This document shows positions 3,347-38,461 of a stretch of DNA of 64,000 bases, piece by piece. Source of the DNA: Bacillota bacterium (GTDB lineage: Bacteria > Macinerneyibacteriota > Macinerneyibacteria > Macinerneyibacteriales > DSCS01); contig DSCS01000026.1 of the NCBI GenBank assembly GCA_011048995.1, forward strand, positions 2,765 through 66,764. Reading direction: 5' to 3'. The position numbers and the translations under genes are program-made. How positions within the stretch are numbered: position 1 is the stretch's first letter; each line of letters begins with the position of its first letter. Below the pieces are notes generated by a model. The model did not search any database. It saw nothing but the letters and a program-made list of their open reading frames with translations, and was not told where the DNA came from.

Positions 3347-4996
<1,650 letters not shown>

Positions 4997-9638: not shown

Positions 9639-9651
9639 CAGGAGGGGAATT

Positions 9652-10368: not shown

Positions 10369-10380
10369 AAGGGAGTGACA

Positions 10381-11520
10381 ATGAAAACGAAAAAAATAAT
10401 GATTATTCTTTGGGCCCTTCTTTTCTGTCTGCCTGTCGCTGCAGAAGAGAGGGCTCCTCTAGCTAATTTTGAATTAAAAGATACGCCGAACAATGCCGGA
10501 GAGCAGGTCGAGTTCCTTTTTGTACCGGCAGCCTCTCCTGAAGAAGTCCCGGAGTTTCTGCTTCATATCGCTATCGGCGATGAGCCTGTCAAAGAGCGGC
10601 GGTTAGTGAACGCCGGCAAAGAGATCTTTCTCCCTCTGATCACCGGCGAAGCAGGGGTTCCGGTGGAAGTCCGTGTTGAAGCTGTCATGGATGACGGTTC
10701 TTTGAAAAACTTAGGGACATCTTCCCTTGTCAGCCGCGGAGAATGGCTGAATATGAACTCCATGAAGGCCTTTATCCTGGGGCTTCTCTTTATTGCCCTG
10801 ATTATCTTTTATGTGGGCCGGGCGAAAAAAGGCAAAGATCTTTTCATCAGGAAGATCCCGGGACTGGAGGCTATTGATGACGCTTTGGGACGGGCCACAG
10901 AAATGGGACGCCCGGTCTTCTATGTGCCCGGAACATCAAGTATGGCTGATGTGGCCACGCTGGCTTCTTTGAATATTCTGCGACCGGTAGCCCGTCAGGT
11001 GGCCAAATATGAGACGCCCTTTTCTGTCCCTGTCAAGGACCCTATTGTGGTCTCTGTAGCTCAGGATGTGGTCAAAGAAGCCTATATGGCCGCCGGCCGC
11101 CCTGATCTCTACGATGACGGAATCGCCTATCTGGCTTCTATGGGACAGTTCGACTATTCGGGAGCTGTGAGCGGTTCTATGATGCGTGAAAAGCCGGCCA
11201 CGGTTTTTCTTTTGGGGATGTTTTATGCCGAATCACTGATTTTGGCTGAAACGGCTAACAGCGTCGGGGCGATTCAGATCGCCGGGACCGATGCCTCATC
11301 CCAGCTGCCCTTTTTCATCGCAGCCTGTGATTATACGCTGATCGGAGAAGAGCTTTATGCTGCTTCTGCCTACATGAGTCGTGAACCGCTCCTTTTGGGA
11401 ACATTAAAAGCACAGGATATTCTCAAAGGGCTTCTTCTTTTGCTCTTTGTCACGGCGATTATTTTTCAGCTTTTCGGTATTGATTTCGTCATGGACACTT
11501 TTTTAAAACCCGAATGGTGA
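10381..11520 (+). CDS. Cassette A gene 4: signal peptide, then a variable exported domain of about 100 aa, then TM, then a conserved domain of about 230 aa, then a C-terminal TM. Unknown function
   Basis: N-terminal MKTKKIMIILWALLFCLPVAAEE signal-like sequence. The C-terminal domain is over 80% identical to its paralog at 14025-15170, but the N-terminal exported domain is highly diverged. Confidence 0.8.
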   Translation: MKTKKIMIILWALLFCLPVAAEERAPLANFELKDTPNNAGEQVEFLFVPAASPEEVPEFLLHIAIGDEPVKERRLVNAGKEIFLPLITGEAGVPVEVRVEAVMDDGSLKNLGTSSLVSRGEWLNMNSMKAFILGLLFIALIIFYVGRAKKGKDLFIRKIPGLEAIDDALGRATEMGRPVFYVPGTSSMADVATLASLNILRPVARQVAKYETPFSVPVKDPIVVSVAQDVVKEAYMAAGRPDLYDDGIAYLASMGQFDYSGAVSGSMMREKPATVFLLGMFYAESLILAETANSVGAIQIAGTDASSQLPFFIAACDYTLIGEELYAASAYMSREPLLLGTLKAQDILKGLLLLLFVTAIIFQLFGIDFVMDTFLKPEW

Positions 11521-11686: not shown

Positions 11687-12310
11687 ATGAAGAGAACCCT
11701 GCCTCTTGCTTTGGCCTTCATCTTCGGTCTTATCGGGATCGCCGTTCAGATCGTGCCTGCTTTGAAGGGATTCCTGAATACGATGCTGGACTGGATGGCC
11801 ATTATCGGGTCTTTTGCCCTGGCTTTGGGTGTTTCCAGCCTTACCCGCCATCATATGACAAAGATCCGGCGGAAGCACAAAGACATGTTTTTCAGTTACG
11901 TGACCTTTGTCACGATGCTTTTTATGATGATTATCGGCCTTATCGGCTACTTTCAGCCGGAAAGCCTCTATCAGAGGCTTTTCGGAAATATGTACAATTA
12001 TGTACGTGTCCCCCTGGACGCCAGTATGTTTGCCTTATTGGCCTTTTTTATTACTTCAGCGGCGTATCGTGCCTTCCGGGCCCGCACTTGGCTGGCCACG
12101 GTTTTGCTGGTGGCCGGAGTCGTGGTGATGATGGGCCGGGTAGCCTTCGGCCCCTTTATGATCTTTAATGATATTACGGCCTGGCTGATGAAAGTTCCTA
12201 CGACAGCCGCCATGCGGGGGTTGACGATCGGAATCGGTTTGGGAATCGTGGCCACATCTATCAAGATCGTTCTCGGTATTGAGCGCTCTTATCTGGGAGG
12301 GGGAGAATAA
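11687..12310 (+). CDS. Cassette B gene 1 (paralog of 8014-8640), polytopic membrane protein
   Basis: 207 aa. Same C-terminal ERSYLGGGE and KIRRKHKD loop as its paralog. Confidence 0.8.
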   Translation: MKRTLPLALAFIFGLIGIAVQIVPALKGFLNTMLDWMAIIGSFALALGVSSLTRHHMTKIRRKHKDMFFSYVTFVTMLFMMIIGLIGYFQPESLYQRLFGNMYNYVRVPLDASMFALLAFFITSAAYRAFRARTWLATVLLVAGVVVMMGRVAFGPFMIFNDITAWLMKVPTTAAMRGLTIGIGLGIVATSIKIVLGIERSYLGGGE

Positions 12311-13305
12311 TGAAAACACCCTGGTATGAGAAGATCGCCTCCGTTGATAAAAAGATCCTTTATGTGATCATGTTTGTCGTGGTGATGATCCCGCTTCTGG
12401 CCAAATGGACCTATAACCCTGATGTTATGGACGAAGTACAGGACATTTACGATGAGGTCGAGGAGATCTATGCCTATAATCTTGCCAATCCTGATGCTCC
12501 CATGGGGATACTCTTCTCTTTTGATTACGGACCCTCGACAAGTGCTGAGCTTGACCCCATGATGATGAGTGTCCTGCGCCACGCTTTTTTAAGGAAGATC
12601 CCTGTAGTGACTTGGGTCGCCTTTGTGGACAGCATCGATCTGGGGAAAAGAATCACCAACTTTATTGCGAAAGAATACGGCGCTGTCTACGGCGAAGATT
12701 TTGTCTTCATGGGCTATCCTTATCCTATGACGGCGGCCGTCGTGGCTTTTGGAAGTGATGTGCGTAAATTTCTGGTAAAAGATTTTTACGGCAATGTCAG
12801 CACGGATCTGCCGCTATTGAATAAGATCTATAATTACAAAAGTATCGGATTGATTGTGACCGTTTCCGGCACGTCCATGCCCCGGTTCTGGGTGACCTAT
12901 GCCAACACCCTTTATGGCAAAAAGATCGCCACAGGGACGACGGCAGTTTCTGCCGCGGACTTTTACCCCTTTTTGCAGACCAAACAGATGATCGGCATGA
13001 TGGGGGGGCTTCGCGGGGCTGCTGAGTATGAGAAGCTGGTCTATGAATTGGAAACCGAACTTATCGGAACTGACACAGAGATGTATATGCAGAGTGTCTA
13101 TAAACAAAATACGGTACAAAAGTGGGATACCAAAGTCTTTACGCCCGGCTATACGGAAGAAGAATTGCGCGAGCATATCTCTACCCGTATGACAGCCCGC
13201 ACGGGGATGGCCTCTCAGGCTGCAGCTCACTTTTTTGTCATATTTTTGATTATTTTGGCCAACCTCGGCTACTTTTTTAAACGCCGGGCCGAAAACAAGA
13301 GGTAG
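12310..13305 (+). CDS. Cassette B gene 2 (paralog of 8640-9638)
   Basis: 331 aa. Same TAATG start/stop overlap as copy A. Confidence 0.8.
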   Translation: MKTPWYEKIASVDKKILYVIMFVVVMIPLLAKWTYNPDVMDEVQDIYDEVEEIYAYNLANPDAPMGILFSFDYGPSTSAELDPMMMSVLRHAFLRKIPVVTWVAFVDSIDLGKRITNFIAKEYGAVYGEDFVFMGYPYPMTAAVVAFGSDVRKFLVKDFYGNVSTDLPLLNKIYNYKSIGLIVTVSGTSMPRFWVTYANTLYGKKIATGTTAVSAADFYPFLQTKQMIGMMGGLRGAAEYEKLVYELETELIGTDTEMYMQSVYKQNTVQKWDTKVFTPGYTEEELREHISTRMTARTGMASQAAAHFFVIFLIILANLGYFFKRRAENKR

Positions 13306-13314
13306 GAGGTCCTT

Positions 13315-14022
13315 ATGTTATTCTGGTATACTGTCGCGGTATTATTAAGTCTTGCCATCTTCTCCTTCCTCTGGAAGGATAATCCCCTCTATAAATTTGC
13401 TGAGCATCTTTTTGTCGGGACCATGGTGGGATATACGATCGTCATGGTCTTTTCACAGATTATCATGAGAAAGATCGTAGACCCTATTACGCTTGCCGTG
13501 CATAATCATCAATATCTTAACCTGATCTCTCTGATTATTGCCACATTGATCGGGCTTCTTTATCTCTCCCGTTTTTCACAGAAGGCCCAATGGGTTAGCC
13601 GTTATCCCATCTCCATCACCGTAGGGTTTTGGAGCGGATATGCCATTGTCACATCATTTAAAACCAATATCCTCACCCAGGTGCGCGGGACAGTAGTGGA
13701 TGATATGGGAGCTCCTCTGTTGAATGGAGAGCTTTTGGGTGATTTCATTAAAAGCCCCTCCTGGTCATCTTTGGATCTGGCTGTTTCAGGCCCGCTTCTG
13801 GTCTTTGGTGTCATCGTCGTCTTGATCTACTTCTTTTTTTCCATAAAGAATGAGAATCCCATGGTCAGATTTGCCAATAAGCCGGCGCTTCTCTATCTGA
13901 TGCTGGGTTTCGGGGCTTCTTTCGGCTATACTTTTATGGGCCGTATCAGCCTCTTTATCGGGCGGATGAATTTTATTTTTAATGAGTGGTGGCCGCTCTT
14001 AAAACAGACCATAGGAGGATAA
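13315..14022 (+). CDS. Cassette B gene 3 (paralog of 9652-10368), polytopic membrane protein
   Basis: 235 aa, GGAGG RBS. Confidence 0.8.
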   Translation: MLFWYTVAVLLSLAIFSFLWKDNPLYKFAEHLFVGTMVGYTIVMVFSQIIMRKIVDPITLAVHNHQYLNLISLIIATLIGLLYLSRFSQKAQWVSRYPISITVGFWSGYAIVTSFKTNILTQVRGTVVDDMGAPLLNGELLGDFIKSPSWSSLDLAVSGPLLVFGVIVVLIYFFFSIKNENPMVRFANKPALLYLMLGFGASFGYTFMGRISLFIGRMNFIFNEWWPLLKQTIGG

Positions 14023-14024
14023 GG

Positions 14025-15170
14025 ATGAAAAAAATACTTTTTTTAGCTCTTGTCGTACTCGTGAGCCTGTCATTCGCGGCTGCGGTGAAAGCCGAAGAGG
14101 AGCGTCCCCTTTACGGATGTGAATTGAATCTTTATGATACACCCAATGACGACGGAATCTCTGTTGAGCTGGAGTTTATGCCTTTAAGCTCTCCCGATGA
14201 GGTCCCCCAATACGGCATTGACCTTTATGTGGACGGGGTTTTTATGAATACTTTGACCGTTGTCAATGCCCAGGCCCTTTTTATATACACGGTACCCACC
14301 GATAAAAGGGGAGCGGAAGTTCGGGCTGAAGTCTTTGCGTATGATGCAGAAGGGACGCGTCAGGGGCCTGTTCAAGTCGAAAAAGCTATCTCCACGGCCC
14401 AATGGTACTATTCTGACCGCATTGGCGCCTTTATCTGGTCGATGCTCTTTATCGGACTGATTATGATTTTGATCGGTAAAGCCAAAAAGGGACAGGATAT
14501 CTTTATCCGCCGTATTGCCGGATTGGAAGCCATTGACGATGCCGTAGGCCGTGCCACGGAGATGGGGCGCCCTGTTTTCTATATTCCCGGGACATCCATC
14601 ATCGATGATATTGCCACATTGGCTTCGCTGAATATTCTGCGACCTGTGGCTCAGCAGGTCGCTACCTATGAGACGCCTTTTTCCGTGCCTATAAAAGACC
14701 CTGTGGTGCTGACGGTGGCCCAGGATATCGTCAAAGAAGCCTATATGGCGGCCGGCCGGGCTGACCTTCATGATGAAGGAATGGTCTATTTGGCGTCTGT
14801 AGGCCAGTTTGACTATGCCGCCGCCGTAAACGGAGCCATGGTGCGCGAAAAACCGGCAACAGTTTTTTTGCTGGGGATGTTTTGGGCCGAATCTTTGATG
14901 CTGGCTGAAACAGCCAACACGGTAGGAGCCATTCAGATCGCCGGAACCGATGCGACTTCTCAGCTGCCTTTTTTTATTGCTGCCTGTGACTACACCCTCA
15001 TCGGAGAAGAACTTTATGCCGCATCAGCCTATATGAGCCGTGAACCTTTACTTTTAGGGACGCTGAAAGCCCAGGATATGATCAAGGGAGCTGTTATTTT
15101 CGCTATGCTTCTTTCCCTGGTCTTTATGCTTTTCGGCATCGATTCTGTGATGAATTTCTTTTTTCAGTAA
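14025..15170 (+). CDS. Cassette B gene 4 (paralog of 10381-11520). Start set at ATG 14025 (MKKILFLALVVLVSLSFAAAVKA signal peptide), not the 13986 ORF-track start that overlaps gene 3
   Basis: 381 aa with signal peptide. Conserved C-terminal domain, divergent exported N-terminal domain. Confidence 0.78.
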   Translation: MKKILFLALVVLVSLSFAAAVKAEEERPLYGCELNLYDTPNDDGISVELEFMPLSSPDEVPQYGIDLYVDGVFMNTLTVVNAQALFIYTVPTDKRGAEVRAEVFAYDAEGTRQGPVQVEKAISTAQWYYSDRIGAFIWSMLFIGLIMILIGKAKKGQDIFIRRIAGLEAIDDAVGRATEMGRPVFYIPGTSIIDDIATLASLNILRPVAQQVATYETPFSVPIKDPVVLTVAQDIVKEAYMAAGRADLHDEGMVYLASVGQFDYAAAVNGAMVREKPATVFLLGMFWAESLMLAETANTVGAIQIAGTDATSQLPFFIAACDYTLIGEELYAASAYMSREPLLLGTLKAQDMIKGAVIFAMLLSLVFMLFGIDSVMNFFFQ

Positions 15171-15250: not shown

Positions 15251-16963
15251 ATGAATAAGGATCGTCTTATTAATCTTTTAGATACTTTTCTCTTCACCGG
15301 GACTGTGGTGGCTGTTATCTCTTTTTTTGCCCATTACGGTTTTTTTGTAAACCCCGAACTTCTGACAATCATACGAAAGGGCGCTTTTATCCTGACAGGG
15401 ATCCTTGTCTTTGATAATATTTTGATGCTATTTTTGAATGCCTTTCCCGGAGAAGCCTTTCGGAAACATCGTTTTCTTTATCTGGTGACATTGCTGCTTC
15501 TTATTCATTTCCTTTTCACATTTATCGGCGTTTATGGCGGAAATCCGGATGCGCGGCTTTTTTATTATTTTACAGCGGCTCAGATCTATATTTTCTTTAT
15601 GTTCATCATTAAGCTGACAAAGATCAACCGGATGGTTTTCCCGGGAATCAACTGGCGTCCCGAACAGCTTTTTATCCTTTCATTTTTGGGGGTCATTGTT
15701 CTCGGGACTCTTTTTCTGTCATTTCCCCGGGCTACTGTAGCTGAAGGGGCGATGCCTTTGATTGATGCCTTTTTCACTTCGACTTCAGCTGTTTGTGTCA
15801 CAGGGTTGATCGTCGTGGATACGGCTGTTTATTTTACACGATTCGGCCAGTTTATTATTCTGGCGCTGATTCAGATCGGGGGATTGGGTTTGATGACATT
15901 CACGTCCTTTTTCACGATCTTCTTTTTTAAGACGATGAGCTTTAAAGAGCGCTTTTTGATGAGTGATGTGTTGAGCACGGATTATATCGGTAATGTTCAT
16001 AAGATCATCGGGAAAATATTGATTATCACCTTCACCATTGAAACCGCCGGAGCACTGCTTCTGTTTATGTCCTGGCAGGATAAGTTTAACTCTCTGGGGG
16101 AAACAGTTTTTCACTCTGTTTTTCATGCCGTCTCATCTTTTTGTAATGCCGGTTTTTCGACGTTTAGCAACAGTCTTATGAGCTTCCGGGGAGATGCCGC
16201 TGTGAATCTTATTGTGATCGTCCTTATTATTCTGGGCGGTTTGGGGTTTCTAGTCCTCATGGATTTTTTTCAGCCGCTGGACCGACGGCGGCGCATGCTT
16301 ATGGTACAGACAAAGTTAGTTTTGACCACATCGGCGCTTTTAATCCTCATCGGTACGGTGGTCTTTTTCCTTGTGGAAAACGGCAACACTCTGCAGGGAA
16401 TGAGTATTGGAGAAAAAATATTAGCTTCCCTTTTTCAATCGGTTACCCCACGGACAGCCGGTTTTAATACTGTAGATATCGGGCTTCTCTCCCTTCCCAT
16501 GCTGATGATCTTTACGATGTTCATGTTTATCGGAGCCTCTCCGGGCTCAACCGGAGGAGGAATTAAAACGACGACGTTCGGTATCTTGATTATGACAGTA
16601 TGGTCTTATTTGAAAAACAGAGACCAGGTCAGCCTTTTTAAACGTCGTATTCCTTCGCGTATCGTTTACAGGGCTATGTCTCTGGTCGTTGTCTCCATTG
16701 CGTATCTCTTTATGGCTTATCTGTTCCTTGTTGTCAGTGAAGACATCTCAATGATCGATGCTTTTTTTGAATTGGTTTCAGCTTTCGGAACGGTAGGACT
16801 TTCAACAGGGGTGACCCCTTATCTTTCCACAGCCGGGAAAATAACGATTATGCTTACAATGTTTGTGGGGCGCCTGGGGCCGATGACATTGGCCCTGGCC
16901 CTAAGCCGGGGCGAAAAAGCGGTTGTGACTTATCCTGAAGAGACCAGTATCATGGTCGGTTAG
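15251..16963 (+). CDS. trkH: Trk/Ktr-family K+ uptake membrane subunit (TrkH-like) with an N-terminal membrane extension of about 90 aa
   Basis: 570 aa, multiple TM. Selectivity-filter-like GLG motifs and the GGGIKTTT signature typical of TrkH/KtrB. Confidence 0.85.
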   Translation: MNKDRLINLLDTFLFTGTVVAVISFFAHYGFFVNPELLTIIRKGAFILTGILVFDNILMLFLNAFPGEAFRKHRFLYLVTLLLLIHFLFTFIGVYGGNPDARLFYYFTAAQIYIFFMFIIKLTKINRMVFPGINWRPEQLFILSFLGVIVLGTLFLSFPRATVAEGAMPLIDAFFTSTSAVCVTGLIVVDTAVYFTRFGQFIILALIQIGGLGLMTFTSFFTIFFFKTMSFKERFLMSDVLSTDYIGNVHKIIGKILIITFTIETAGALLLFMSWQDKFNSLGETVFHSVFHAVSSFCNAGFSTFSNSLMSFRGDAAVNLIVIVLIILGGLGFLVLMDFFQPLDRRRRMLMVQTKLVLTTSALLILIGTVVFFLVENGNTLQGMSIGEKILASLFQSVTPRTAGFNTVDIGLLSLPMLMIFTMFMFIGASPGSTGGGIKTTTFGILIMTVWSYLKNRDQVSLFKRRIPSRIVYRAMSLVVVSIAYLFMAYLFLVVSEDISMIDAFFELVSAFGTVGLSTGVTPYLSTAGKITIMLTMFVGRLGPMTLALALSRGEKAVVTYPEETSIMVG

Positions 16964-26205: not shown

Positions 26206-26312
26206 GTGTCTCATTATAAAAGAAGATCGATTCATTGCAAGGGGAAAGGAAACATCATATCATTTGATTTTTCAGGAAGATTTCTGTATAGTATAAAAGG
26301 TAAGGAGGAGAG

Positions 26313-27464
26313 ATGAAAAGTTTTATCTATCATCAGCCCACCCGACTTTTTTTTGGAAGAGGCCAGATCAAGCATTTAGGGAAAGAAGCCGCAAAATACG
26401 GAGAAAAAGCCCTGCTTGTCTATGGAGGGGGAAGCATAAAAAAAAATATGATCTTTGATGCAGTTGTCAGAGAGCTTGAAAAATACGGAATTGAATATAA
26501 AGAATTGGGTGAGGTATCCCCCAACCCTGTTTTACAGCGGGTAAAAGAGGGCATTCGCCTGGCGCGGGAACAGAAAAGCGACCTTGTCCTTGCTGTCGGA
26601 GGCGGAAGCGTCTTGGATACGGCAAAAGCGATTGCGGCGGGAGTCTTTGCCACAGGGGATGTGTGGAGCATGTTCACGGGGCAGGAGCCCATTACCAGGG
26701 CCCTTCCGATCGGGACAGTCCTTACTATAGCAGCCACCGGGTCTGAAGCCAATGCCCATGCTGTTATCACTTATGAAACCGAGGCAAAAAAATGTGCTAT
26801 TCATTCTGAGATGATTATTCCACGGTTTTCCATTATGGATCCGGAATACACATTTACTGTCTCTCCCCGACAGACGGCTGCGGGAGTGGCGGATATTATG
26901 GCCCATTTGTTCGAACAGTATTTTTCTCCGGATCCCGATGCCGTTGTTACGGATTACCTGACAGAGGCTTTACTGAAAATCTGCGTGGAGATGGGGCCGC
27001 AAGCTCACAAAGAGGGAGAGAATATGAAAGCCCGTGCAAATCTTATGTGGGCTTCGACTTTGGCGCTGAACGGCCTTATGAGTCTGGGAAAACGGACAGA
27101 TTGGGCTCTTCATAAATTAAGTCATGAGCTCAGTGCCCGCTATGATATGATTCACGGGGAGACTTTCTCCATCCTTTATCCGGCCTGGATGCGTTATGTA
27201 GCCGATGCGGACGCATTGAATCGTTTTGCGCATTTGGGAAAAGTACTTTTCGGGGAGAAAGCGAACTCTTCTTCCGCATTTATTGAACATCTGGAGACTT
27301 TTTATCAAAGCCTGGGCCTTCCTCTTCATCTGAGCGAGCGCGGAATCGGTCCTGACAGGTTCGAAGAGATGGCGTCTAATATTATTGATCTCTACGGCCT
27401 TATCGGGATCTTTAAACGGCTTGATTATCATGACATTGTCCGTATTTTTCAAATGGCTCTTTGA
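26313..27464 (+). CDS. Iron-containing (group III) alcohol dehydrogenase
   Basis: GGGSVLDTAKAIA NAD-binding motif. 383 aa. Confidence 0.85.
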   Translation: MKSFIYHQPTRLFFGRGQIKHLGKEAAKYGEKALLVYGGGSIKKNMIFDAVVRELEKYGIEYKELGEVSPNPVLQRVKEGIRLAREQKSDLVLAVGGGSVLDTAKAIAAGVFATGDVWSMFTGQEPITRALPIGTVLTIAATGSEANAHAVITYETEAKKCAIHSEMIIPRFSIMDPEYTFTVSPRQTAAGVADIMAHLFEQYFSPDPDAVVTDYLTEALLKICVEMGPQAHKEGENMKARANLMWASTLALNGLMSLGKRTDWALHKLSHELSARYDMIHGETFSILYPAWMRYVADADALNRFAHLGKVLFGEKANSSSAFIEHLETFYQSLGLPLHLSERGIGPDRFEEMASNIIDLYGLIGIFKRLDYHDIVRIFQMAL

Positions 27465-27475: not shown

Positions 27476-30400
27476 ATGAAGATTATCAATGACAGATATG
27501 AATTAAGAAAGAAAATGGCCGAAGAGGGGAATACTTCCTTTTATCTGGCCCGGGACCGTTTTAAAAGCAAGGCGGTCCTGTTGCGGATTTTTGATACGAT
27601 GAGGGATGTTCTGGACAAGTTCGCTTCCTATCATCAGCTTATAAGGGTTAAGCATCCGTCGCTTTTGGAGTATTATAATTATGAGAAGGTTTGGTTTTTT
27701 GATGAAAAAATGACCTATTCCAACTATTATATTTTAATCAGCGAATATGTGTCCCGCGAAAGTTTTGCCGGACTTTTGGAAAAGGGGAATTTTTCCGAAG
27801 ATGAGGTCATGGAGCTCATGAGCCATTTCTGGAAGGCCCTTTTTTACCTGTATAAACAAAAGCTTTATATTTACGACTTTCCCGAAATGAGCCTTATTAT
27901 TCAGCAGAGAAAACGATTGAAGATCGATCTGTTGGGCTTGGATGTCTCATCCTCTTTTGAATCGGAAAAATTTTTGGGGTTATGCCGCTCCATAGCCGGG
28001 TTTCTTGAAACCTATCCGTATCCTTCAAAGCGCCTGGACGATTACAGGCGCCGCCTTTCTTCGTTTTCCGGTGCATCATTGGGGGAGTGGTTCGATGAAA
28101 TGGAAGCGGGTGGTTTCTTCAAGGGAAACCGCTATTCCTATTTTTATGAAAAAAAAGAGTGGTCAGCCTGTGAGATGGGACTCTCCCTTCATTCTGAAAT
28201 CTTGCGGGATCTTTACACGTTCCAGTCCAGAAGAAATTCGAAAATTGCGTTTATATTCTTTGGAGATACAAGTTCTTTAAAAGAAGTCGTGATCCGAGAT
28301 TTCCTTGAATTCCTTAAATATGAAAAATATTTAAAAATTGAGATCATCATGCAGGATTTCTATGATTTTTTGAAATATCTTTTTGAATGTGTCAGTCATT
28401 ACCGTCTCCGGGAGGATTTGAATAAAATTATCACCCGTCAATTCAGCCTTTACAATGAGACGCTGAATGAGCAATACCTCCTTAATGTCCAGTCCTATCT
28501 TTTGGAGCTTCTGTTTGATTTTTCTATTACAAAAAAAGTGGTGCTGCATGTCCAGAATATTGTGGGGATGGATGACAAGATCAACCGTTTTCTGAATATG
28601 ATGCTTCATGTCAAACAACGGGGCAATATTGTCTTTCTTTTTGACGCCGGAATGGAAAAAAACCGTTTTCATGTCTTTTATAAAGATCCCCGATTTGAAA
28701 TTGTAACCAAAGAGTACTCACGGCTGTCTCACGAGGAAGTCAGGAGCATGCTGGCGCATCTTTTTGACAATGGTATTTCTCTGGAACCCTTGGAAAACCT
28801 GCTGCTTCATTATGAAATCAACCGTGCAGAAAAGGTTATCGGGTTTATTCAGAAAATGGTGGAAAAAAATCTTCTTTCTATTGATGATAAGCACAAGATC
28901 CTTTTTATTAATTCGGCGGGGGTGGAGAAGTCTCTCCCTTATTTGCTGGCCGATGACAGCCTGGATAAAAAAGTCCGTTATCTGCGCAGGGAAGAAAAGG
29001 AGATCCTCTGGTATCTGAGTCATAGCCGGAAAATTATGAAATTGGATGAACTGATAAGCCTCCTTCAATGCGATCAGGAAGAGGCTTTGGCTTTTTTGGG
29101 CTCATTGCGTGCCCACGCTTATATCGATGAGATCTGGGAACAGGAAACGGCCTATTACCGCATCGTGCGCAATGATCTCAAAGAATATTTTTTAAAGAAC
29201 AGCCTTGAAGAAGCCTCTGATTTTCGGGAAAAGTTTATCGTCTTTTTAGAAAATCAGAAAGCCGATCCTCTTCAGGCTATGAATCTTATCCAGATCCATA
29301 TGGAGTTAGAAGCTTATTCCAAAGCCCTGGAAAACATTTCACGATTGTTGAAAATATACCATTTAGGGATAAATGACATGAATGAACTGCAAGCATGGCT
29401 GGAACGCATCGGCAGGGAAGAGGGACGTGTTGACATGCGTCTTTATCAGCAGACACGCCTGCATCTGATGCTTGCCATCGGCGATGAGAAAGGGATTCAG
29501 GCATTTGTTTCGGATCATGTGCAATTGAAACAGTTTTTGAAAGAAAAAGAGAAAAGGCTTTTTTCTGTCTACCTGGTGATTCGCGCCTTAGAGGGTTTTA
29601 TCGGCCGGGGGACAGGAGCGACTTCACAGCTTCGACGGCTTAAGCGAAAGATCGAACGCTGGCCTGAGAATCCGGATCTTCTCTTCCTTATGCATTATAT
29701 TGATTATCTTGTCGCACCCTCATCAGAGAAAGAGTCCCGGGGAGAGGCTCTTCTGAACGCTCTTGTGTCCGGAATGCCCTGGTTTCTTTATCAATCGGCC
29801 CTTTTGACAGCCACGGATTTTTATGTGGCCGGTTCTTATGAGCGGGTACGCCGTCAATTGGAAAGGTTTCTTTCCCTTTTGGAGACAGAAGATACAAGTG
29901 ATGAATTATCCGCTGTGGTTATTCAGGCTTTTTTTCTTATGGGCAATATCAACCTGAATACGGGTGATGCCTCTAAAGCGTTAGGATATTATGAAAGAGC
30001 GTTAGAAATGGCCCGGGACATGGGCAGCTACAGAGACCAGATCAAAGCCCATAATAATATTGCCAGTGCCAAATATTATATCGGATATTCTTATGAAACG
30101 ATTATCTATGAATTGAACAAGTCCGTGAATCTGGGGAAAAAGTCTGGAGATGAAATCAGTATTGTGGTTCCTCTTTCAAATATAGCTGAATTGTATGCGG
30201 ATAATTTCTACTATAAAGAGGCCTACAAAACCATTGCCGAAGCTATGCGTTACGTCAAGAAAAGCGATGCCCGGCGCTATCTTGTTGTTCTGGATCAGCT
30301 GATTGCAATTATTATTCAAATGGGAGATTATAAAAAAGCGCGATATTTGAGCTCATTGATGAAAAAAAGCGCAAAATCAGCTACTTATTGGCAATATTTG

Positions 30401-32518
30401 GTGAATTATTATGCAAATAATGGAGATATTTATTATGCATGGCGCCGCTATGCCCAGGCATTGAGTTATTACGAGCGCGTGGCGTCTGAATGTGAAAAAC
30501 AGCATCTGTATAATTATGAGTACTTTGATGCGATGTTAAAAAAAATAAGGATTCTTTATTTTGACAAAGGGAGAAAGACTGAGGCCCGAAATCTTTTTCA
30601 GCATCTGAAGAAATTAAAAGAAAGTTCTCATGTTGAATTGGGGGATATTGATTTTGACTATGCAGGGATTTCTTTCCTGCAATCTGATGATGAAAAGATC
30701 ACAATGCTGGAGCGTTTGCTGGCCCGTTATAAAAAAGAAAAAAATAACGGCCAGATCTTAAGAATGCTGATAGAACTCTCCCAGCTTTATGAAAAAAGAG
30801 AGTTCAATTTTCGTCTTTATGAGATCCTCACAGATATTCTCTTTTATGAGCAGCATATAAAAAGCAATTTTCCTAAAGGTTATCTTGTCTTCTATCAGAA
30901 GACAAGACTTTGTCGTGAAATACAGGACTGTAAGAGGGCTGTAGCTCAGCGGCTGAAAATCCCCCTGTCAAGGATCACCTTTCCCTTTATCAAAAAACTC
31001 TGGTCAGATGAATATGCCGATAATATTTTTCGTTTTTACCGTAAAGAAATGCTTTCACTCATTGAAAGATGGAAGTATGATTTCACGGGCATAGACGAGA
31101 ATATTAAAATCGTTCTCAATTTTATTATGGATTTTGCCCGGGCAGACCGTGTTACTCTCTTTGTCCGAAATGAGACAGAGCGTTATCATCCGCTTTTTGA
31201 GCAGGTGGCACGTCCTCTCTATGAAGATGGAGAATACAGGAATGACCTCCTTGTCTCCGCACTTCAGTCACCACGGCATATCCACGTCAAAAATTACAGT
31301 CATTTTTCATCCTCGATAGTGACCGCCGGGCTTTTTCCCGTTGTTGACCTCGGATATAGCGAAGAGGGCGGGGAGAACGGCGGAGAAGAAACTCTTTTGG
31401 AAGATTCTGTCCGTGGTTTGATTTATATCGATACGAAAAAGTATTGCAATCATATCCAAAAAGGGCTGACGGAATTCATTTTTCCGTTGATTCAATACCT
31501 TAGCATCCTGTTGCGTTATCGTGAGTTAAGAGATGAGATCATTCTCTGTCCTTTGACCGGAGTGATGACACGTTATTTCTTTTTAAATACGTTGAAAAAA
31601 AAGATTGCCCGAAGAAGAAAAGACGAGACCCTCGGCTTTATGCTGGTCGATATCGATCACATGACTGAGCTGAATCAGAAATTCGGAGAAATCGAAGGAG
31701 ACCGGATCATCAAACGTGTAGCGGGAGTCATTGTTTCCTATGCGAAAAGCAACGATATTATCGGCCGCTACATGGGGGAAGAATTCGCCATAGCCCATTC
31801 CCGTATATCCAAAGGGCAATTGCTTGACAAAGCGGAGCATCTTATAAAACTGATCAAAGAGGATTCGGAATTAGCCCGCTACGGGGCCACAGTCAGCATC
31901 GGGCTCAGTTATATTCCGGATCACGGAGAAAAAGCGGATATCGTTTTGGCTAAAGGGATCGCCGCATTGAATGCGGCTAAAAAAAGCGAGCGGGCTGTTG
32001 TCCTTTGGGAGGAAAAATACGGGATCTATAAGGGGAAACATGATATTTTGGCCGGGATTGTAACCGGTGACATTGCATTGACTGAAGACGTCATCAGAAA
32101 CCTCGTTGAATTGGCTATGCTTGCCCCGGAATCTGAAGAAGCCTTTTTCCAGACAATTTTAGGCATGATCAGCCGTTTTATTGATTACGATTTTATTGAT
32201 TTCTCCTTTGGCGTCAGAGGCCGGACTTTCGAGTATCGGGACAAGGGCATCAAAACCATTGAAAAATATGTGGAGCATGCCGGGAAAATCAAGGACACCC
32301 TCATTGCCATCAACTGGAAGTATGAGGAAGGGCGACAGGGTCTCTATTCGGATCTTATTCATGTGGCGGAGGAAAGAGGCATTTCTTTGAAAATCTATCT
32401 GTCCAGCCCTATGGAGAAGAAAGAATATACCTATATCGAGGCGAATCTTCTCTCCATTGTCACGCAGCTTATCATCAGCCATTTGCGCTATTTAGCCATG
32501 AACACTCTTGACGAATGA
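27476..32518 (+). CDS. Large multidomain signalling protein. In order: an N-terminal Ser/Thr-kinase-like domain with degenerate catalytic motifs (pseudokinase), a degenerate P-loop NTPase/STAND-like region, TPR repeats, a GAF-like domain, a GGDEF domain (motif RYMGEEF), and a C-terminal GAF-like domain
   Basis: N-terminal INDRYELRKKMAEEGNTSFYLARD resembles kinase subdomains I-II with GxGxxG/VAIK replaced. Central FFGDTSSLK / VVLHVQNIVGMDD resemble Walker A/B remnants. Multiple TPR-like YYERALEMA repeats. Canonical GGDEF fold residues (LVDIDHM...GD.I...RYMGEEF...TVSIGL). The ORF-track start TTG 27461 overlaps the ADH stop; ATG 27476 preferred. Confidence 0.7.
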   Translation: MKIINDRYELRKKMAEEGNTSFYLARDRFKSKAVLLRIFDTMRDVLDKFASYHQLIRVKHPSLLEYYNYEKVWFFDEKMTYSNYYILISEYVSRESFAGLLEKGNFSEDEVMELMSHFWKALFYLYKQKLYIYDFPEMSLIIQQRKRLKIDLLGLDVSSSFESEKFLGLCRSIAGFLETYPYPSKRLDDYRRRLSSFSGASLGEWFDEMEAGGFFKGNRYSYFYEKKEWSACEMGLSLHSEILRDLYTFQSRRNSKIAFIFFGDTSSLKEVVIRDFLEFLKYEKYLKIEIIMQDFYDFLKYLFECVSHYRLREDLNKIITRQFSLYNETLNEQYLLNVQSYLLELLFDFSITKKVVLHVQNIVGMDDKINRFLNMMLHVKQRGNIVFLFDAGMEKNRFHVFYKDPRFEIVTKEYSRLSHEEVRSMLAHLFDNGISLEPLENLLLHYEINRAEKVIGFIQKMVEKNLLSIDDKHKILFINSAGVEKSLPYLLADDSLDKKVRYLRREEKEILWYLSHSRKIMKLDELISLLQCDQEEALAFLGSLRAHAYIDEIWEQETAYYRIVRNDLKEYFLKNSLEEASDFREKFIVFLENQKADPLQAMNLIQIHMELEAYSKALENISRLLKIYHLGINDMNELQAWLERIGREEGRVDMRLYQQTRLHLMLAIGDEKGIQAFVSDHVQLKQFLKEKEKRLFSVYLVIRALEGFIGRGTGATSQLRRLKRKIERWPENPDLLFLMHYIDYLVAPSSEKESRGEALLNALVSGMPWFLYQSALLTATDFYVAGSYERVRRQLERFLSLLETEDTSDELSAVVIQAFFLMGNINLNTGDASKALGYYERALEMARDMGSYRDQIKAHNNIASAKYYIGYSYETIIYELNKSVNLGKKSGDEISIVVPLSNIAELYADNFYYKEAYKTIAEAMRYVKKSDARRYLVVLDQLIAIIIQMGDYKKARYLSSLMKKSAKSATYWQYLVNYYANNGDIYYAWRRYAQALSYYERVASECEKQHLYNYEYFDAMLKKIRILYFDKGRKTEARNLFQHLKKLKESSHVELGDIDFDYAGISFLQSDDEKITMLERLLARYKKEKNNGQILRMLIELSQLYEKREFNFRLYEILTDILFYEQHIKSNFPKGYLVFYQKTRLCREIQDCKRAVAQRLKIPLSRITFPFIKKLWSDEYADNIFRFYRKEMLSLIERWKYDFTGIDENIKIVLNFIMDFARADRVTLFVRNETERYHPLFEQVARPLYEDGEYRNDLLVSALQSPRHIHVKNYSHFSSSIVTAGLFPVVDLGYSEEGGENGGEETLLEDSVRGLIYIDTKKYCNHIQKGLTEFIFPLIQYLSILLRYRELRDEIILCPLTGVMTRYFFLNTLKKKIARRRKDETLGFMLVDIDHMTELNQKFGEIEGDRIIKRVAGVIVSYAKSNDIIGRYMGEEFAIAHSRISKGQLLDKAEHLIKLIKEDSELARYGATVSIGLSYIPDHGEKADIVLAKGIAALNAAKKSERAVVLWEEKYGIYKGKHDILAGIVTGDIALTEDVIRNLVELAMLAPESEEAFFQTILGMISRFIDYDFIDFSFGVRGRTFEYRDKGIKTIEKYVEHAGKIKDTLIAINWKYEEGRQGLYSDLIHVAEERGISLKIYLSSPMEKKEYTYIEANLLSIVTQLIISHLRYLAMNTLDE

Positions 32519-32558
32519 ATTTCTCCTGCTATGGTGAGTATCATCGAGGGAGGTGAGC

Positions 32559-33098
32559 GTGGAATTTTACACTCGATTTGTACAGGATCATGTTATTCTT
32601 TCATCCTTTTTTCAGTTTTTTATTCTGGGAATGGTCGGAGAATGCCTCGGATTGCGTATTGCGGGGAAAAACCCCTTTCGGGCCATGACCTTTCTTCAGT
32701 TTGTTCTCAAGATGGTGGCCTGGGGTTTTCTGGGAATTCTGATCAAATATGCTTTTACAGGATTTGTCGGTTTTGCGGGCTCTCTGGGAGAAAAGGGGCT
32801 TGTGGGCTCTCTCTTCTTCACGAAAGCCGGGAAGGCCTTTTTGATATCATTTGCAATGAATATCCTCTTTGGACCGCAAATGATGACATTTCATCGCCTG
32901 ACCGATAATTGGATTATGAAAACCGGGGAGTTTTCGGGCCTGAAAAGTTCATTTCTGACGCTTCTTTGGTTTTGGATTCCGGCTCATACTGTGACGTTTC
33001 TTCTGCCGGAAGAGTACCGTATCGGGCTGGCAGCCTTATGGTCTGTTGTTTTAGGGCTTATTATGGGCTTTTATAAAAGGAAAGGGGCTCATGGATAA
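32559..33098 (+). CDS. Hypothetical polytopic membrane protein. Start uncertain (GTG 32553 or 32559)
   Basis: Hydrophobic 180-aa ORF upstream of, and overlapping, rseC-like gene. Alternative-frame ORF 32531-32908 judged spurious. Confidence 0.45.
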   Translation: MEFYTRFVQDHVILSSFFQFFILGMVGECLGLRIAGKNPFRAMTFLQFVLKMVAWGFLGILIKYAFTGFVGFAGSLGEKGLVGSLFFTKAGKAFLISFAMNILFGPQMMTFHRLTDNWIMKTGEFSGLKSSFLTLLWFWIPAHTVTFLLPEEYRIGLAALWSVVLGLIMGFYKRKGAHG

Positions 33099-36592: not shown

Positions 36593-37120
36593 ATGGAATT
36601 TATGGGAACGACCATTATTATGGTACGCCGTGACGGAAAAACGGCCATGGGAGGCGACGGGCAGGTCACATTAGGGAACACCCAGGTCAAAAGCACAGCG
36701 AACAAAGTCAGAAAGGTCAATGACAATGTCCTGGTGGGATTTGCGGGCAGTGTGGCAGATTCCTTTGCTTTGGTTGAGCGTTTTACGGAAAAGGTGAATA
36801 TGTATAAAAACAACCTTCGCCGCGCAGCTGTGGAGCTGGCCAAAGAATGGCGCTCCGATAAAGTCTTGCGCCGCCTGGAAGCGATGATGATCGTGGCCGG
36901 TGCTGATGAGTCCTTTCTCCTTTCGGGAAGCGGGGAAGTCATTGAGGATGAGATCGGGCTATTAGCCATAGGCTCCGGGGGCTCTTTCGCCCATGCAGCC
37001 GCCCGGGCTTTAATGGAGGAAACAGATCTGAGTGCTGAAGAGATCGTAAAAAAGTCATTGGATATAGCAGCAGAGATTTGCATTTATACGAATCATCATA
37101 TCTCTGTCATCTCTTTATAG
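36593..37120 (+). CDS. hslV: ATP-dependent protease subunit HslV (ClpQ). No hslU follows
   Basis: [15 protein letters not shown]...[14 protein letters not shown] proteasome-beta-like Thr protease. The next gene is rph. Confidence 0.85.
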
Positions 37121-37128
37121 GGGGGGAA

Positions 37129-37857
37129 ATGCGGTCAGACGGAAGAAAAAACGACGAATTAAGAAAAATAAATCTGATACCCGGGTATATTGCCCATGCC
37201 GAAGGCTCTCTTCTTATCGAATGGGGAGATACCCGTGTGATTTCCACTGTTACTGTCGAAGAGAAGGTCCCGCCTTTTCTGAGAGGCAGCCAAAGCGGGT
37301 GGATTACCGCTGAATACGGTATGCTTCCACGATCCACTCAGATCCGTATGCAGAGAGAGAGTACTCGCGGAAAGCCCGGGGGGCGGACCATGGAGATTCA
37401 AAGACTTATCGGAAGAAGCCTGCGGGGTGTGGTGGATTTGAAGGAGCTGGGAGAAAGGACCTTATGGGTGGACTGTGATGTTATTCAGGCTGACGGGGGA
37501 ACACGTGTCGCTTCCATTACGGCCTCTTTTGTCTCTCTCTATCTGGCTTTGGCCCGCTTAAGAGACCAAGGGAAGATCGCTACTCTTCCGGTGAATCAGT
37601 TTGTGGCGGCGGTCAGTGTGGGAATCTGTGACGGGGTTCCTCTTTTGGATCTTTGTTATGAAGAAGATTCTGCTGCAGAAACGGACATGAATGTCGTTAT
37701 GACTCAGGATGGGAAATTGATTGAGATCCAGGGAACGGCTGAAGGGGTGCCTTTTATGCGAAGTGAGCTGAATGACCTGCTGGACCTGGCCGAAAAGGGA
37801 GTCGCCGATCTTGTCCGTTTACAACAGGAAGTGATCTTTTCACATGTCTCCCCTTGA
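37129..37857 (+). CDS. rph: Ribonuclease PH
   Basis: [12 protein letters not shown]...[13 protein letters not shown] motifs. Confidence 0.9.
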
Positions 37858-38461
37858 TATCATATTGGCGACAAAGAACGCGGATAAGATCAAAGAAATC
37901 CGCTCGGCCCTTGTCCTTCCGGGAATCCGCTTTATCGAAAACAGGTCTCTTTTGCCTGCTGTCGAGGACGGCGCGACTTTTGTGGAAAATGCCCTGATAA
38001 AAGCACGGAAGGCCTCAGAACAGAGCGGAAAGGCTGCATTAGCGGATGATTCAGGCCTTCAGGTGGACGCTTTACAAGGCGCTCCGGGAATCTATTCAGC
38101 GCGTTTTGCAGGTGAAAACGCCTCTGATCGGGAAAACAATGAAAAATTGCTGAAACTGATGCGTGCTTATCCCGAAAAAGGGCGTGAAGGGCAGTTTTAT
38201 GCTGCCGTTGTCCTCTATTTCCCTTCAGGTGAATGGATTCATGCAGAAGGATCTTGCCGGGGCCTTATTCTGGAATCACCCCGCGGGGGAGGAGGATTCG
38301 GGTATGACCCGCTTTTTTATCTTCCATCCCTGAAAAAGACCATGGCGGAGTTGACCTTGGAAGAAAAAAACGCGCTCAGCCACCGCAGCCGGGCATTAAG
38401 CCGGCTAAGAGAAAAACTCTTTTCGGAGGAATTTCGTTCTCTTCTGAATATCACCCCTTGA
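37844..38461 (+). CDS. rdgB: Non-canonical purine NTP pyrophosphatase RdgB/HAM1
   Basis: [13 protein letters not shown]...conserved Ham1 motifs. Classic rph-rdgB pair. Confidence 0.88.

What the first reader, a model, noticed from the sequence alone, without database searches (positions are those of the whole stretch)
27476..32518. Signalling protein of about 1680 aa combining pseudokinase, degenerate STAND-like NTPase, TPR, GAF and a non-canonical GGDEF (RYMGEEF)
The N-terminus resembles a Hanks-type Ser/Thr kinase, but the glycine loop (AEEGNTS) and the catalytic Lys position (LLRIF) look degenerate. The central region has Walker A/B-like remnants (GDTSSLK; VVLHVQNIVGMDD) without a canonical GK[ST]. 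The GGDEF domain keeps most fold residues but has Met replacing the first Gly of the GG(D/E)EF signature. The architecture recalls kinase-AAA-TPR regulators but is fused to c-di-GMP output, possibly as a receptor or scaffold rather than an active cyclase.
Basis: partly seen in the sequence, partly recalled or inferred. Interest (0 to 1): 0.7.

Follow-up and report, generated by a model that had tools for sequence, protein, structure and literature searches.

The report
Giant degenerate kinase-STAND-GGDEF signalling protein
This is a real 1680-residue bacterial signalling protein in which the kinase-like and ATPase-like parts have lost their catalytic motifs, while the part that makes the messenger c-di-GMP keeps nearly all its working residues, so it is an unusual lineage-specific version of a family already present, but unstudied, in the databases.

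Summary

Profile-profile comparison aligns it end to end (E about 1e-73) with 1740-1820-aa Firmicutes proteins annotated 'diguanylate cyclase'.

- **Distribution:** this sub-family occurs only in Candidatus Mcinerneyibacteriota MAGs: 4 clusters among 1.84 billion representatives and 8 genome loci, in conserved housekeeping synteny.
- **Kinase domain:** it is a pseudokinase. The Firmicutes relatives are pseudokinases too.
- **STAND domain:** Walker A is GDTSSLKE and Walker B is VVLHVQN. This domain is nevertheless the most conserved part of the protein.
- **GGDEF domain:** all orthologues carry [M/L]G[D/E]EF. They keep every residue reported as essential for Mg/GTP binding. The RxxD I-site is not conserved.

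An engineered MGDEF variant of V. cholerae VCA0965 is active.

Verdict: a new variant of a known, uncharacterised architecture, of moderate interest.

The parts
27476..32518 (+). Whole gene: 1680-aa soluble multi-domain signalling protein, stop codon included
   Evidence: The ORF and its translation are. Full-length orthologues are 34-98% identical. The identical protein is called in public assemblies. No TM-like segments were found.
27476..28147 (+). Residues 1-224: compact kinase-like domain (pseudokinase). Gly-loop is AEEGNTS, beta3 is R37, HRD is IYD, DFG is D151-LLG. The activation segment is shortened.
28148..28735 (+). Residues 225-420: STAND/AAA_16-derived NTPase-like domain with decayed Walker motifs. 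It is the most conserved region of the protein.
   Evidence: hhalign places it on the reference AAA_16 domain in the right register, but weakly on its own (Prob 38%, E=3.4e-4). Mean pairwise identity is 61% and 30% of columns are invariant. No relatives outside the family were found.
28262..28285 (+). Walker A remnant GDTSSLKE (residues 263-270). It aligns with the invariant GxxGxGK[ST] of the reference family.
28538..28558 (+). Walker B remnant VVLHVQN (residues 355-361). Q360 sits where the reference family has the Walker B Asp (IDN).
28736..29275 (+). Residues 421-600: helical/winged-helix arm of the STAND module
   Evidence: hhalign to reference residues 474-644 at E=1.5e-7. The model has pLDDT 68-81 for residues 420-490.
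29276..30955 (+). Residues 601-1160: TPR/helical-repeat region. Residues 601-800 are poorly conserved; residues 801-1160 are well conserved.
   Evidence: Pfam TPR_12, TPR_2 and TPR_1 are sub-threshold at residues 817-1002. hhalign for residues 812-1153 gives E=4.7e-15.
31088..31531 (+). Residues 1205-1352: GAF-like domain 1, before GGDEF
   Evidence: hhalign to the reference pre-GGDEF region at E=1.8e-6. That reference region hits PDE2A GAF-A (1mc0) at E=1.9e-4. The equivalent region is Pfam GAF_2 in P0092. There is no direct Pfam hit.
31532..32005 (+). Residues 1353-1510: GGDEF domain with the variant motif RYMGEEF
31766..31786 (+). RYMGEEF (residues 1431-1437). All orthologues have [M/L]G[D/E]EF.
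31745..31756 (+). KSND at the position of the RxxD inhibitory site. The Arg is not conserved in the family.
   Evidence: The reference family has RxTD.
32006..32491 (+). Residues 1511-1672: conserved linker (W..Y..GKHDILAGI.TGDI) plus the C-terminal GAF domain 2
32553..33098 (+). Conserved downstream gene: a 181-aa membrane protein of unknown function. It is possibly co-transcribed; whether it belongs to the system is not established.
   Evidence: It lies immediately downstream in L001, L002, L004, L006 and L007 at 53-77% identity. It has no family hit. Three TM-like segments were found.

Best explanation
The gene encodes a soluble cytoplasmic signalling protein. It is the Candidatus Mcinerneyibacteriota version of a family of giant proteins built as kinase-like domain, STAND (AAA_16) NTPase, TPR, GAF, GGDEF, GAF.

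**Shown**
- The whole chain is collinearly homologous to that family.
- The kinase-like domain lacks the residues needed for phosphotransfer.
- The STAND domain lacks a canonical P-loop and the Walker B acid.
- The GGDEF domain has [M/L]G[D/E]EF but keeps every Mg- and guanine-binding residue.
- The I-site is not conserved.

**Inferred mechanism**
- The dead kinase-like and NTPase-like modules no longer act as enzymes or as an ATP switch. They serve as a strongly constrained structural, partner-binding or oligomerisation platform.
- The TPR region and the two GAF domains receive the signal.
- The output is most likely still GTP binding and c-di-GMP synthesis by paired GGDEF domains. This may be slow, and it would lack product feedback through an I-site.
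For: **Architecture**
- hhalign of the family (A4) against 17 Firmicutes proteins (A8) gives Prob 100% and E about 1e-73, collinear over query residues 1-1670.
- Per-domain E-values:
  - kinase 4.7e-15
  - winged-helix arm 1.5e-7
  - TPR 4.7e-15
  - GAF1 1.8e-6
  - GGDEF 7e-32
  - C-terminal domain 8.5e-9
- The reference family carries Pfam Pkinase, AAA_16, TPR, GGDEF and a C-terminal GAF.

**Dead kinase and NTPase:** site tables and alignments.

**A maintained gene**
- The ORF is intact in 8 genome loci.
- The synteny Fe-ADH / target / orf181 / RseC / TopA / Xer is conserved.
- The NTPase-like domain is the most conserved region, at 61% mean pairwise identity.

**GGDEF probably competent**
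- The equivalents of D327, D329, N335, D344, R366, G369, E370 (E or D), E371, F372 and K442 are invariant across 34-70%-identical orthologues.
- D327, N335 and D344 are the residues reported as essential.
- K332 contacts phosphate through its main chain only (PMC7288161).
- MGDEF and HGDEF variants of VCA0965 still raise c-di-GMP about 3-fold in vivo (PMC3974145).
Against: - No activity data exist for this protein or for any member of the wider family.
- In VCA0965 most substitutions at the first motif position abolished activity, and tolerance is context-dependent.
- The R446 equivalent, whose side chain contacts phosphate in PleD, is not conserved (R/H/H/E/S/R). The usually invariant FK and GH motifs are M[T/S] and GE.
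- Both AlphaFold models are low-confidence (mean pLDDT 47 and 50), so no structural check of the hairpin was possible.
- The NTPase-domain homology is weak when scored alone (Prob 38%).
- Conserved A-site residues would equally fit a non-catalytic GTP sensor.
Confidence: 0.5

Rival explanations
1. Non-catalytic GGDEF. The GGDEF domain binds GTP, or another nucleotide, at its A-site but cannot make c-di-GMP. The protein would then be a pure sensor or scaffold with three dead enzyme modules. Its output would be protein-protein interaction, by analogy with GTP-sensing degenerate GGDEF domains such as C. crescentus PdeA (own knowledge).
For: - G368 is replaced by Met or Leu in all orthologues.
- The R446 equivalent is variable, and the FK and GH motifs are changed.
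- Most first-position substitutions inactivate VCA0965.
- The upstream kinase and NTPase modules have also lost their catalytic motifs. This shows a general loss of enzymology in this lineage.
Against: - The metal ligands, E371 and the [D/E] alternation at the third motif position are conserved as in active cyclases.
- The MGDEF variant of VCA0965 is active.
- No adjacent EAL or HD-GYP domain is present for a GTP sensor to regulate.
- No I-site is available for c-di-GMP reception.
Confidence: 0.35
2. Conventional active Ser/Thr kinase fused to a conventional diguanylate cyclase. This is the refutation condition named by the first reader.
For: - The kinase fold and homology are real.
- D134 aligns with the HRD Asp, and D151 is invariant near the DFG position.
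Against: - There is no Gly-rich loop.
- The beta3 Lys position is Arg in this protein.
- The HRD His and Arg are absent, and the Asp is not conserved (D/E/E/E/S/D/A).
- The catalytic-loop Lys and Asn are absent.
- The related Firmicutes family lacks these motifs too.
Confidence: 0.03
3. Antiviral STAND (Avs/NLR-like) defence protein that uses TPR repeats as a phage sensor and GGDEF as the effector.
For: - It has a STAND plus TPR layout.
- PADLOC gives weak hits of the N-terminus to PD-T4-6 kinase models (E=1.9e-8) and to a TPR model.
Against: - No Avs or STAND defence model is hit.
- The PD-T4-6 hits cover only the generic kinase-like residues 2-162.
- The gene sits in housekeeping synteny that is conserved across the lineage (ComEC, M28 peptidase, Fe-ADH, TopA, XerC, RNase PH). 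It evolves at rates similar to its neighbours.
- The NTPase motifs that Avs proteins need are absent.
Confidence: 0.03
4. A decaying gene or an annotation artefact.
For: Three catalytic motifs are degenerate.
Against: - A 5-kb ORF is intact in every orthologue.
- Identity is 34-98% over the full length.
- The degenerate NTPase-like domain is the best conserved part.
Confidence: 0.01

Closest known systems
Firmicutes 'diguanylate cyclase' proteins of 1740-1820 aa (Gudongella, Tissierellaceae, Caldisalinibacter kiritimatiensis, Geosporobacter ferrireducens, Ornithinibacillus; P0006, P0077-P0099). They are annotated only, and I know of no experimental study.
   Same: - Same length class and the same domain order: kinase-like, AAA_16, TPR, GAF, GGDEF, C-terminal GAF.
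- Collinear profile-profile alignment at E about 1e-73.
- Even the N-terminus is similar: MKLINNRY against MKIINDRY.
- Their kinase-like domain also lacks the Gly-loop, the conserved Lys and the HRD Asp.
   Different: They keep an invariant Walker A (GxxGxGK), a Walker B (IDN), RYGGEEF, FK, GH, GRN and an RxTD I-site. In the window family:
- two of the three Walker A glycines are gone;
- the Walker B Asp is gone;
- the first motif Gly is gone;
- the I-site Arg is not conserved;
- the activation segment is shortened.

Sequence identity between the two families is only about 16%.
PK-AAA_16-GAF-output signal transducers with other outputs, such as Leptospira interrogans LIC12324 (PK, AAA_16, GAF, SpoIIE; PMC5100919). 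Kinase-STAND-TPR regulators such as MalT and PknK belong here too (own knowledge).
   Same: A kinase-like head, a STAND NTPase, helical repeats, GAF and a C-terminal output domain.
   Different: - The output here is GGDEF flanked by two GAF domains.
- The STAND nucleotide switch that defines MalT-type activation has no canonical Walker A or B here.
V. cholerae VCA0965 (AGDEF) with its engineered MGDEF and HGDEF variants, and P. atrosepticum ECA3270 (SGDEF) (PMC3974145)
   Same: A non-Gly residue at the first position of GG(D/E)EF with the rest of the motif intact. The Met variant was active in vivo.
   Different: - Here Met or Leu is the natural, lineage-wide state.
- VCA0965 has an RxxD I-site; this protein does not.
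- There is no homology outside the GGDEF domain.
Degenerate GGDEF receptor and sensor domains (PopA, PelD, SgmT, FimX, LapD, YybT; list from PMC3974145)
   Same: A departure from the GG(D/E)EF consensus.
   Different: PopA and PelD are reported to bind c-di-GMP, at an RxxD I-site (own knowledge). Other degenerate domains have broadly decayed A-sites (own knowledge). Here the I-site is lost and the A-site ligands are strictly conserved.

Membership tests
Active Hanks-type Ser/Thr protein kinase | Protein-kinase fold and sequence homology | tested here: met
Active Hanks-type Ser/Thr protein kinase | Gly-rich loop GxGxxG | tested here: not met
   AEEGNTS. None of the pattern positions is Gly in any orthologue.
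Active Hanks-type Ser/Thr protein kinase | beta3 Lys (VAIK) | tested here: not met
   R37 in this protein. The position alternates K/R among orthologues.
Active Hanks-type Ser/Thr protein kinase | HRD catalytic Asp and catalytic-loop Asn | tested here: not met
   HRD is IYD. The Asp position reads D/E/E/E/S/D/A. The Asn position reads S/Q/Q/K/L/F/A.
Active Hanks-type Ser/Thr protein kinase | DFG Mg-binding Asp | tested here: inconclusive
   D151 is invariant (K-x-D-L-L) but lies one residue off the DFG Asp in the HMM alignment.
STAND / AAA_16 P-loop NTPase | Homology of the domain to AAA_16/NOD modules | tested here: inconclusive
   There are no Pfam, NCBIfam or PDB hits. hhalign of this region alone gives Prob 38% and E=3.4e-4. 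The match is at the collinear position, in Walker-motif register, and is bracketed by significant matches.
STAND / AAA_16 P-loop NTPase | Walker A GxxxxGK[ST] | tested here: not met
   GDTSSLKE. The family pattern is G-x3-S-x-K-[ENST], with L/F/Q/I/Y in place of the Gly before the Lys.
STAND / AAA_16 P-loop NTPase | Walker B hhhhD[DE] | tested here: not met
   VVLHVQN. The Asp position reads Q/Q/Q/E/K/K/K.
STAND / AAA_16 P-loop NTPase | NTP binding and hydrolysis | not testable with these tools
   This needs biochemistry.
GGDEF diguanylate cyclase | GGDEF domain homology and fold | tested here: met
GGDEF diguanylate cyclase | GG(D/E)EF signature | tested here: not met
   MGEEF. The first Gly is Met or Leu in all orthologues, and the other four positions are canonical. 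A, S, M or H at this position can be compatible with activity (PMC3974145).
GGDEF diguanylate cyclase | Metal ligands (PleD D327, E370) and guanine ligands (N335, D344) | tested here: met
   D1392, E1435, N1400 and D1409 are invariant in the family, with E/D at the E370 position.
GGDEF diguanylate cyclase | Phosphate ligands K442 and R446 | tested here: inconclusive
   K1502 is invariant. R1506 is present here but variable in orthologues: R/H/H/E/S/R.
GGDEF diguanylate cyclase | RxxD allosteric I-site (not obligatory) | tested here: not met
   KSND. The Arg position reads K/K/K/D/R/G.
GGDEF diguanylate cyclase | c-di-GMP synthesis from GTP | not testable with these tools
   This needs an enzyme assay.
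GAF domain | Sequence-profile match to GAF | tested here: not met
   No Pfam GAF hit for any family member in either region, even at E<=10. No PDB GAF hit either.
GAF domain | Homology to GAF through intermediate sequences, and GAF fold | tested here: met
Kinase-like/AAA_16/TPR/GAF/GGDEF/GAF giant proteins (Firmicutes reference set) | Collinear full-length homology | tested here: met
   hhalign Prob 100% and E about 1e-73, with about 1600 aligned columns.
Antiviral STAND (Avs-type) defence | Match to known defence-system models, and location in a defence island | tested here: not met
   PADLOC gives only kinase-like PD-T4-6 and TPR hits. The housekeeping synteny is conserved.

The most novel reading that the evidence does not exclude
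The STAND nucleotide-switch module was not simply lost. It was repurposed into a nucleotide-independent module under very strong constraint. It is the most conserved region of the protein, and C305, H308, H358 and H378 are invariant only in this family. Such a module might bind a metal, a redox cofactor or a partner protein. It would control a naturally occurring [M/L]G[D/E]EF diguanylate cyclase that lacks I-site feedback. That would be the first natural Met/Leu-type active site and a STAND protein that signals without an ATP switch.
Probability: 0.15. Interest if true: 0.6.

Novelty: new variant of a known kind. Interest (0 to 1): 0.35.

Why it matters
If the GGDEF domain is active, this family would be a natural, lineage-wide example of Met or Leu at the first motif position. 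That would extend the working definition of a functional DGC motif beyond (G/S/A)G(D/E)EF. It would also caution against calling such domains dead in genome surveys.

The STAND module is the second point of interest. It has no canonical Walker A or B, yet it is the best conserved part of the protein. This raises the question of how a STAND scaffold can work without its ATP switch.

The protein is also one of the few signalling components that can be described for the uncultured phylum Candidatus Mcinerneyibacteriota. None of this is established yet, and degenerate GGDEF, kinase and NTPase domains are individually common.

Tried and rejected
**Searches that found nothing useful**
- Direct domain searches for AAA/STAND and GAF (Pfam and NCBIfam at E<=1, and per-member Pfam scans at E<=10) gave no hits.
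- PDB profile searches with residues 225-600, 1185-1352 and 1508-1680 gave only chance-level hits: designed helical bundles, MDA5 and pyrin.
- hhalign of the shallow family profile against the single sequences P0006 and P0011 recovered only the GGDEF and TPR parts. Building a 17-sequence reference alignment was needed.
- Literature searches for this architecture found no characterised member. They returned only a Leptospira PK-AAA_16-GAF-SpoIIE annotation.

**Structure prediction**
- AlphaFold2 on residues 1-620 and 1160-1680 with 4-5 sequences gave poor models (pLDDT 47 and 50).
- The NTPase-like core and GAF1 were not modelled confidently. No fold evidence is claimed for them, and the GGDEF hairpin could not be inspected.

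**Hypotheses considered and rejected**
- Defence system: rejected.
- Functional partner among the neighbours: these are housekeeping genes (ABC-F, Zn-ribbon protein, ComEC, M28 peptidase, Fe-ADH, RseC, TopA, XerC, RNase PH, RdgB). Only the unknown membrane protein orf181 is consistently adjacent.
- Second GGDEF domain in the window: none found.
- Terminators or promoters isolating the gene: the scan showed nothing convincing.
Full report
**1. The observation**

Window 27476-32518 (+) is a single ORF of 1680 codons from the ATG. All homologues begin MKIIN/MKTIN, so the ATG at 27476 is the start, not the upstream TTG at 27461. Public assemblies carry the identical protein with the same gene call.

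| Motif | Residues |
|---|---|
| AEEGNTS | 15-21 |
| VLLRIF | 34-39 |
| GDTSSLKE | 263-270 |
| VVLHVQN (then IVGMDD) | 355-361 (to 367) |
| KSND | 1424-1427 |
| RYMGEEF | 1431-1437 |

The protein has no TM-like segments.

**2. Direct domain searches**

Only GGDEF passes curated thresholds: Pfam E=7.6e-24 for residues 1359-1506, and TIGR00254 E=4.7e-23. The TPR models and Pkinase are sub-threshold; Pkinase scores 23.4 bits against 31.7. No AAA or GAF model is hit even at E<=1.

**3. How wide the family is**

- A word-indexed search of 5.8e9 proteins found five full-length relatives at 47-98% identity.
- An exhaustive HMM search of 1.84e9 cluster representatives with the profile of residues 1-620 found only four family clusters. 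The other 62 hits match residues about 1-220 alone, the kinase-like part, at E 1e-8 to 1e-3.
- A scan of 185,579 species genomes found eight loci. The named ones are Candidatus Mcinerneyibacteriota, including Ca. Mcinerneyibacterium aminivorans.
- Gene order is conserved: ComEC, M28 peptidase (opposite strand), Fe-ADH, target, a 181-aa membrane protein, RseC, TopA, XerC/D, RNase PH, RdgB.
- The target's divergence is in the range of its neighbours. For L007 it is 47% identical, against 60% for TopA, 52% for Fe-ADH and 40% for ComEC.

It is therefore a maintained core gene of this lineage. It is neither a mobile element nor a pseudogene.

**4. What it is related to**

One weak hit of the first search (P0006, Gudongella, 1761 aa) has Pkinase, TPR and GGDEF. 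Its own homologues form a family of 1740-1820-aa Firmicutes proteins annotated 'diguanylate cyclase'. They carry Pfam Pkinase, AAA_16, TPR, GGDEF and GAF.

In P0093, P0096, P0097 and P0098 the GAF hit lies after the GGDEF domain, at the extreme C-terminus. In P0092 a GAF_2 hit lies just before GGDEF.

A 7-sequence alignment of the window family (A4) was compared with a 17-sequence alignment of these proteins (A8). The result was hhalign Prob 100% and E about 1e-73, collinear from residue 1 to about 1670.

Domain by domain:

| Region (window residues) | Result |
|---|---|
| Kinase-like, 1-150 | E=4.7e-15 |
| NTPase, 231-389 | Prob 38%, E=3.4e-4, at the expected position and register |
| Helical/winged-helix arm, 421-592 | E=1.5e-7 |
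| 601-800 | not significant |
| TPR, 812-1153 | E=4.7e-15 |
| Pre-GGDEF domain, 1205-1330 | E=1.8e-6 |
| GGDEF | E=7e-32 |
| C-terminal domain, 1511-1670 | E=8.5e-9 |

The profile of the reference family's pre-GGDEF region hits the GAF-A domain of PDE2A (1mc0) at E=1.9e-4.

The architecture is therefore pseudokinase, STAND-derived domain, helical arm, TPR, GAF, GGDEF, GAF.

**5. Structure predictions**

With only 4-5 sequences both AlphaFold2 models are poor, with mean pLDDT of 47 and 50. I use them only where local confidence is moderate.

- **Not covered:** the NTPase-like core and GAF1 were not modelled with confidence. I claim no fold evidence for them.

**6. Kinase-like domain**

Aligned to S. 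aureus PknB and tabulated over seven orthologues:

- The Gly-loop pattern positions are never Gly.
- The beta3 Lys position is R in this protein and alternates K/R in the family.
- HRD is I-Y-D, and the Asp position reads D/E/E/E/S/D/A.
- The catalytic-loop Lys and Asn are absent.
- D151 is invariant, next to the DFG position.
- The activation segment is shortened by gaps relative to the reference family.

The Firmicutes relatives also lack the Gly-loop, a conserved Lys and the HRD Asp; their motif is YLHFRG..Y..L.P.N. The pseudokinase state is therefore a trait of the whole superfamily, not a peculiarity of this protein.

**7. NTPase-like domain**

- The reference family has an invariant GxxGxGK and a Walker B IDN.
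- In register, the window family has G263-x-x-[S/G/R/D/N]-S267-[L/F/Q/I/Y]-K269-[E/N/S/T].
- At the Walker B Asp position it has Q/Q/Q/E/K/K/K.
- Canonical nucleotide binding and hydrolysis are therefore unlikely. This is an inference from motif loss.

Residues 225-420 are nevertheless the most conserved part of the protein. Mean pairwise identity is 61% and 30% of columns are invariant. The GGDEF domain has 55% and 26%. The region has no detectable relatives outside the family. The domain is thus under strong constraint for some other role. C305, H308, H358 and H378 are invariant only in this family, and I could not test what they do.

**8. GGDEF domain**

Using PleD numbering (motif positions mapped from my own knowledge of the PleD sequence; residue roles from PMC7288161), the family shows:

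| PleD position | State in the family |
|---|---|
| D327, D329, N335, D344, R366, G369, E371, F372, K442 | invariant |
| E370 | E, or D in one orthologue |
| G368 | M in five, L in one |
| K332 | T/S, K in one; in PleD only its main chain contacts phosphate |
| R446 | variable |
| I-site Arg (R359) | K/K/K/D/R/G |

The reference family has canonical RYGGEEF, FK, GH, GRN and RxTD.

Hunter et al. (PMC3974145) substituted the first motif position of VCA0965 with the other 19 amino acids. G, H and M kept activity, with c-di-GMP up about 3-fold, and most others lost it.

Three points follow:
- (a) This is not an I-site type c-di-GMP receptor.
- (b) The nucleotide and metal site is under purifying selection.
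- (c) Met at the first position does not by itself mean an inactive enzyme.

I therefore rate 'still binds GTP and probably makes c-di-GMP' somewhat above 'GTP-binding but non-catalytic'. The sequence data cannot separate them.

**9. Mechanism: shown and inferred**

*Shown:*
- the domain order and its homology to the Firmicutes family;
- the loss of kinase and Walker motifs;
- the conservation pattern;
- the preserved A-site and the lost I-site;
- a soluble protein in housekeeping synteny.

*Inferred:*
- the N-terminal two modules act as a constrained structural or partner-binding platform rather than as enzymes or an ATP switch;
- the TPR region and the two GAF domains are the input elements, with the poorly conserved residues 601-800 (25% identity) possibly being the variable surface;
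- signalling output is through pairing of GGDEF domains to make c-di-GMP without product inhibition.

**10. Rivals**

- **Sensor or scaffold with a dead GGDEF:** plausible, rated 0.35.
- **Conventional kinase-DGC:** excluded by the motif table.
- **Avs-like defence:** PADLOC gives only generic kinase (PD-T4-6) and TPR hits, and the gene is in conserved core synteny.
- **Pseudogene:** excluded by the intact, conserved ORFs.

**11. Novelty and score**

The architecture already exists in databases under the name 'diguanylate cyclase', and a Leptospira PK-AAA_16-GAF-SpoIIE relative of the scheme is annotated. I found no experimental study of any member.

This lineage-specific version differs in three ways:
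- it has no canonical Walker motifs, yet that module is its best conserved part;
- it has a natural [M/L]G[D/E]EF motif;
- it has no I-site.

That makes it a new variant of a known, uncharacterised kind. Degenerate kinase, NTPase and GGDEF domains are individually common; about 24% of GGDEF domains are degenerate (PMC3974145). A specialist would find this moderately interesting rather than very surprising. Interest: 0.35.

Noticed in passing
window 8014-11520 and 11687-15170 (+): A tandem duplicated four-gene cluster, with ORFs of 208/332/238/381 aa and 207/331/235/394 aa. The second genes of each copy are 53% identical. In the first copy, three of the four genes have no Pfam hit and the last is DUF6754; the second copy was not scanned.
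   Followed up: partly
window 32553-33098 (+): A 181-aa hydrophobic protein with three TM-like segments and no Pfam, NCBIfam or PADLOC hit. It lies immediately downstream of the target in five of the related loci, at 53-77% identity. The overlapping 125-aa ORF at 32531-32908 is much less conserved (31-47%) and is probably not a gene.
   Followed up: partly
window residues C305, H308, H358, H378 of the target (nt about 28388-28609): Four Cys/His residues in the NTPase-like domain are invariant in all seven orthologues. They have no conserved counterpart in the Firmicutes reference family. A possible metal or redox site; untested.
   Followed up: no
Reference family A8 (P0006, P0080-P0099), N-terminal 300 residues: The Firmicutes 'diguanylate cyclases' that pass the Pfam Pkinase threshold are themselves pseudokinase-like. 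They have no Gly-loop, no conserved beta3 Lys, HRD replaced by Y-x-x, and DFG replaced by D-[LIV]-A. Their Walker A and GGEEF motifs are intact.
   Followed up: partly
PDB 3ezu (best solved-structure match of the GGDEF region): The closest solved GGDEF sequence, a Geobacter multidomain protein of unknown function, also has a non-Gly first motif residue (RYDGDEF).
   Followed up: no
window 26313-27464 / 27476: The Fe-dependent alcohol dehydrogenase gene ends 11 nt before the target's ATG. The scan showed no convincing terminator between them. Promoter-like sites lie upstream of the ADH gene (26235-26292). Co-transcription is possible, and the pairing is conserved in L001, L002, L007 and L008.
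   Followed up: partly
window 194-1456, 1797-2906, 3359-4996, 5099-7844, 15251-16963, 37078-38461: The rest of the window is ordinary housekeeping: a Y-family polymerase, the glycine-cleavage T protein, GroEL, a TldD/PmbA pair, TrkH, RNase PH and RdgB. No other GGDEF domain occurs in the window.
   Followed up: partly
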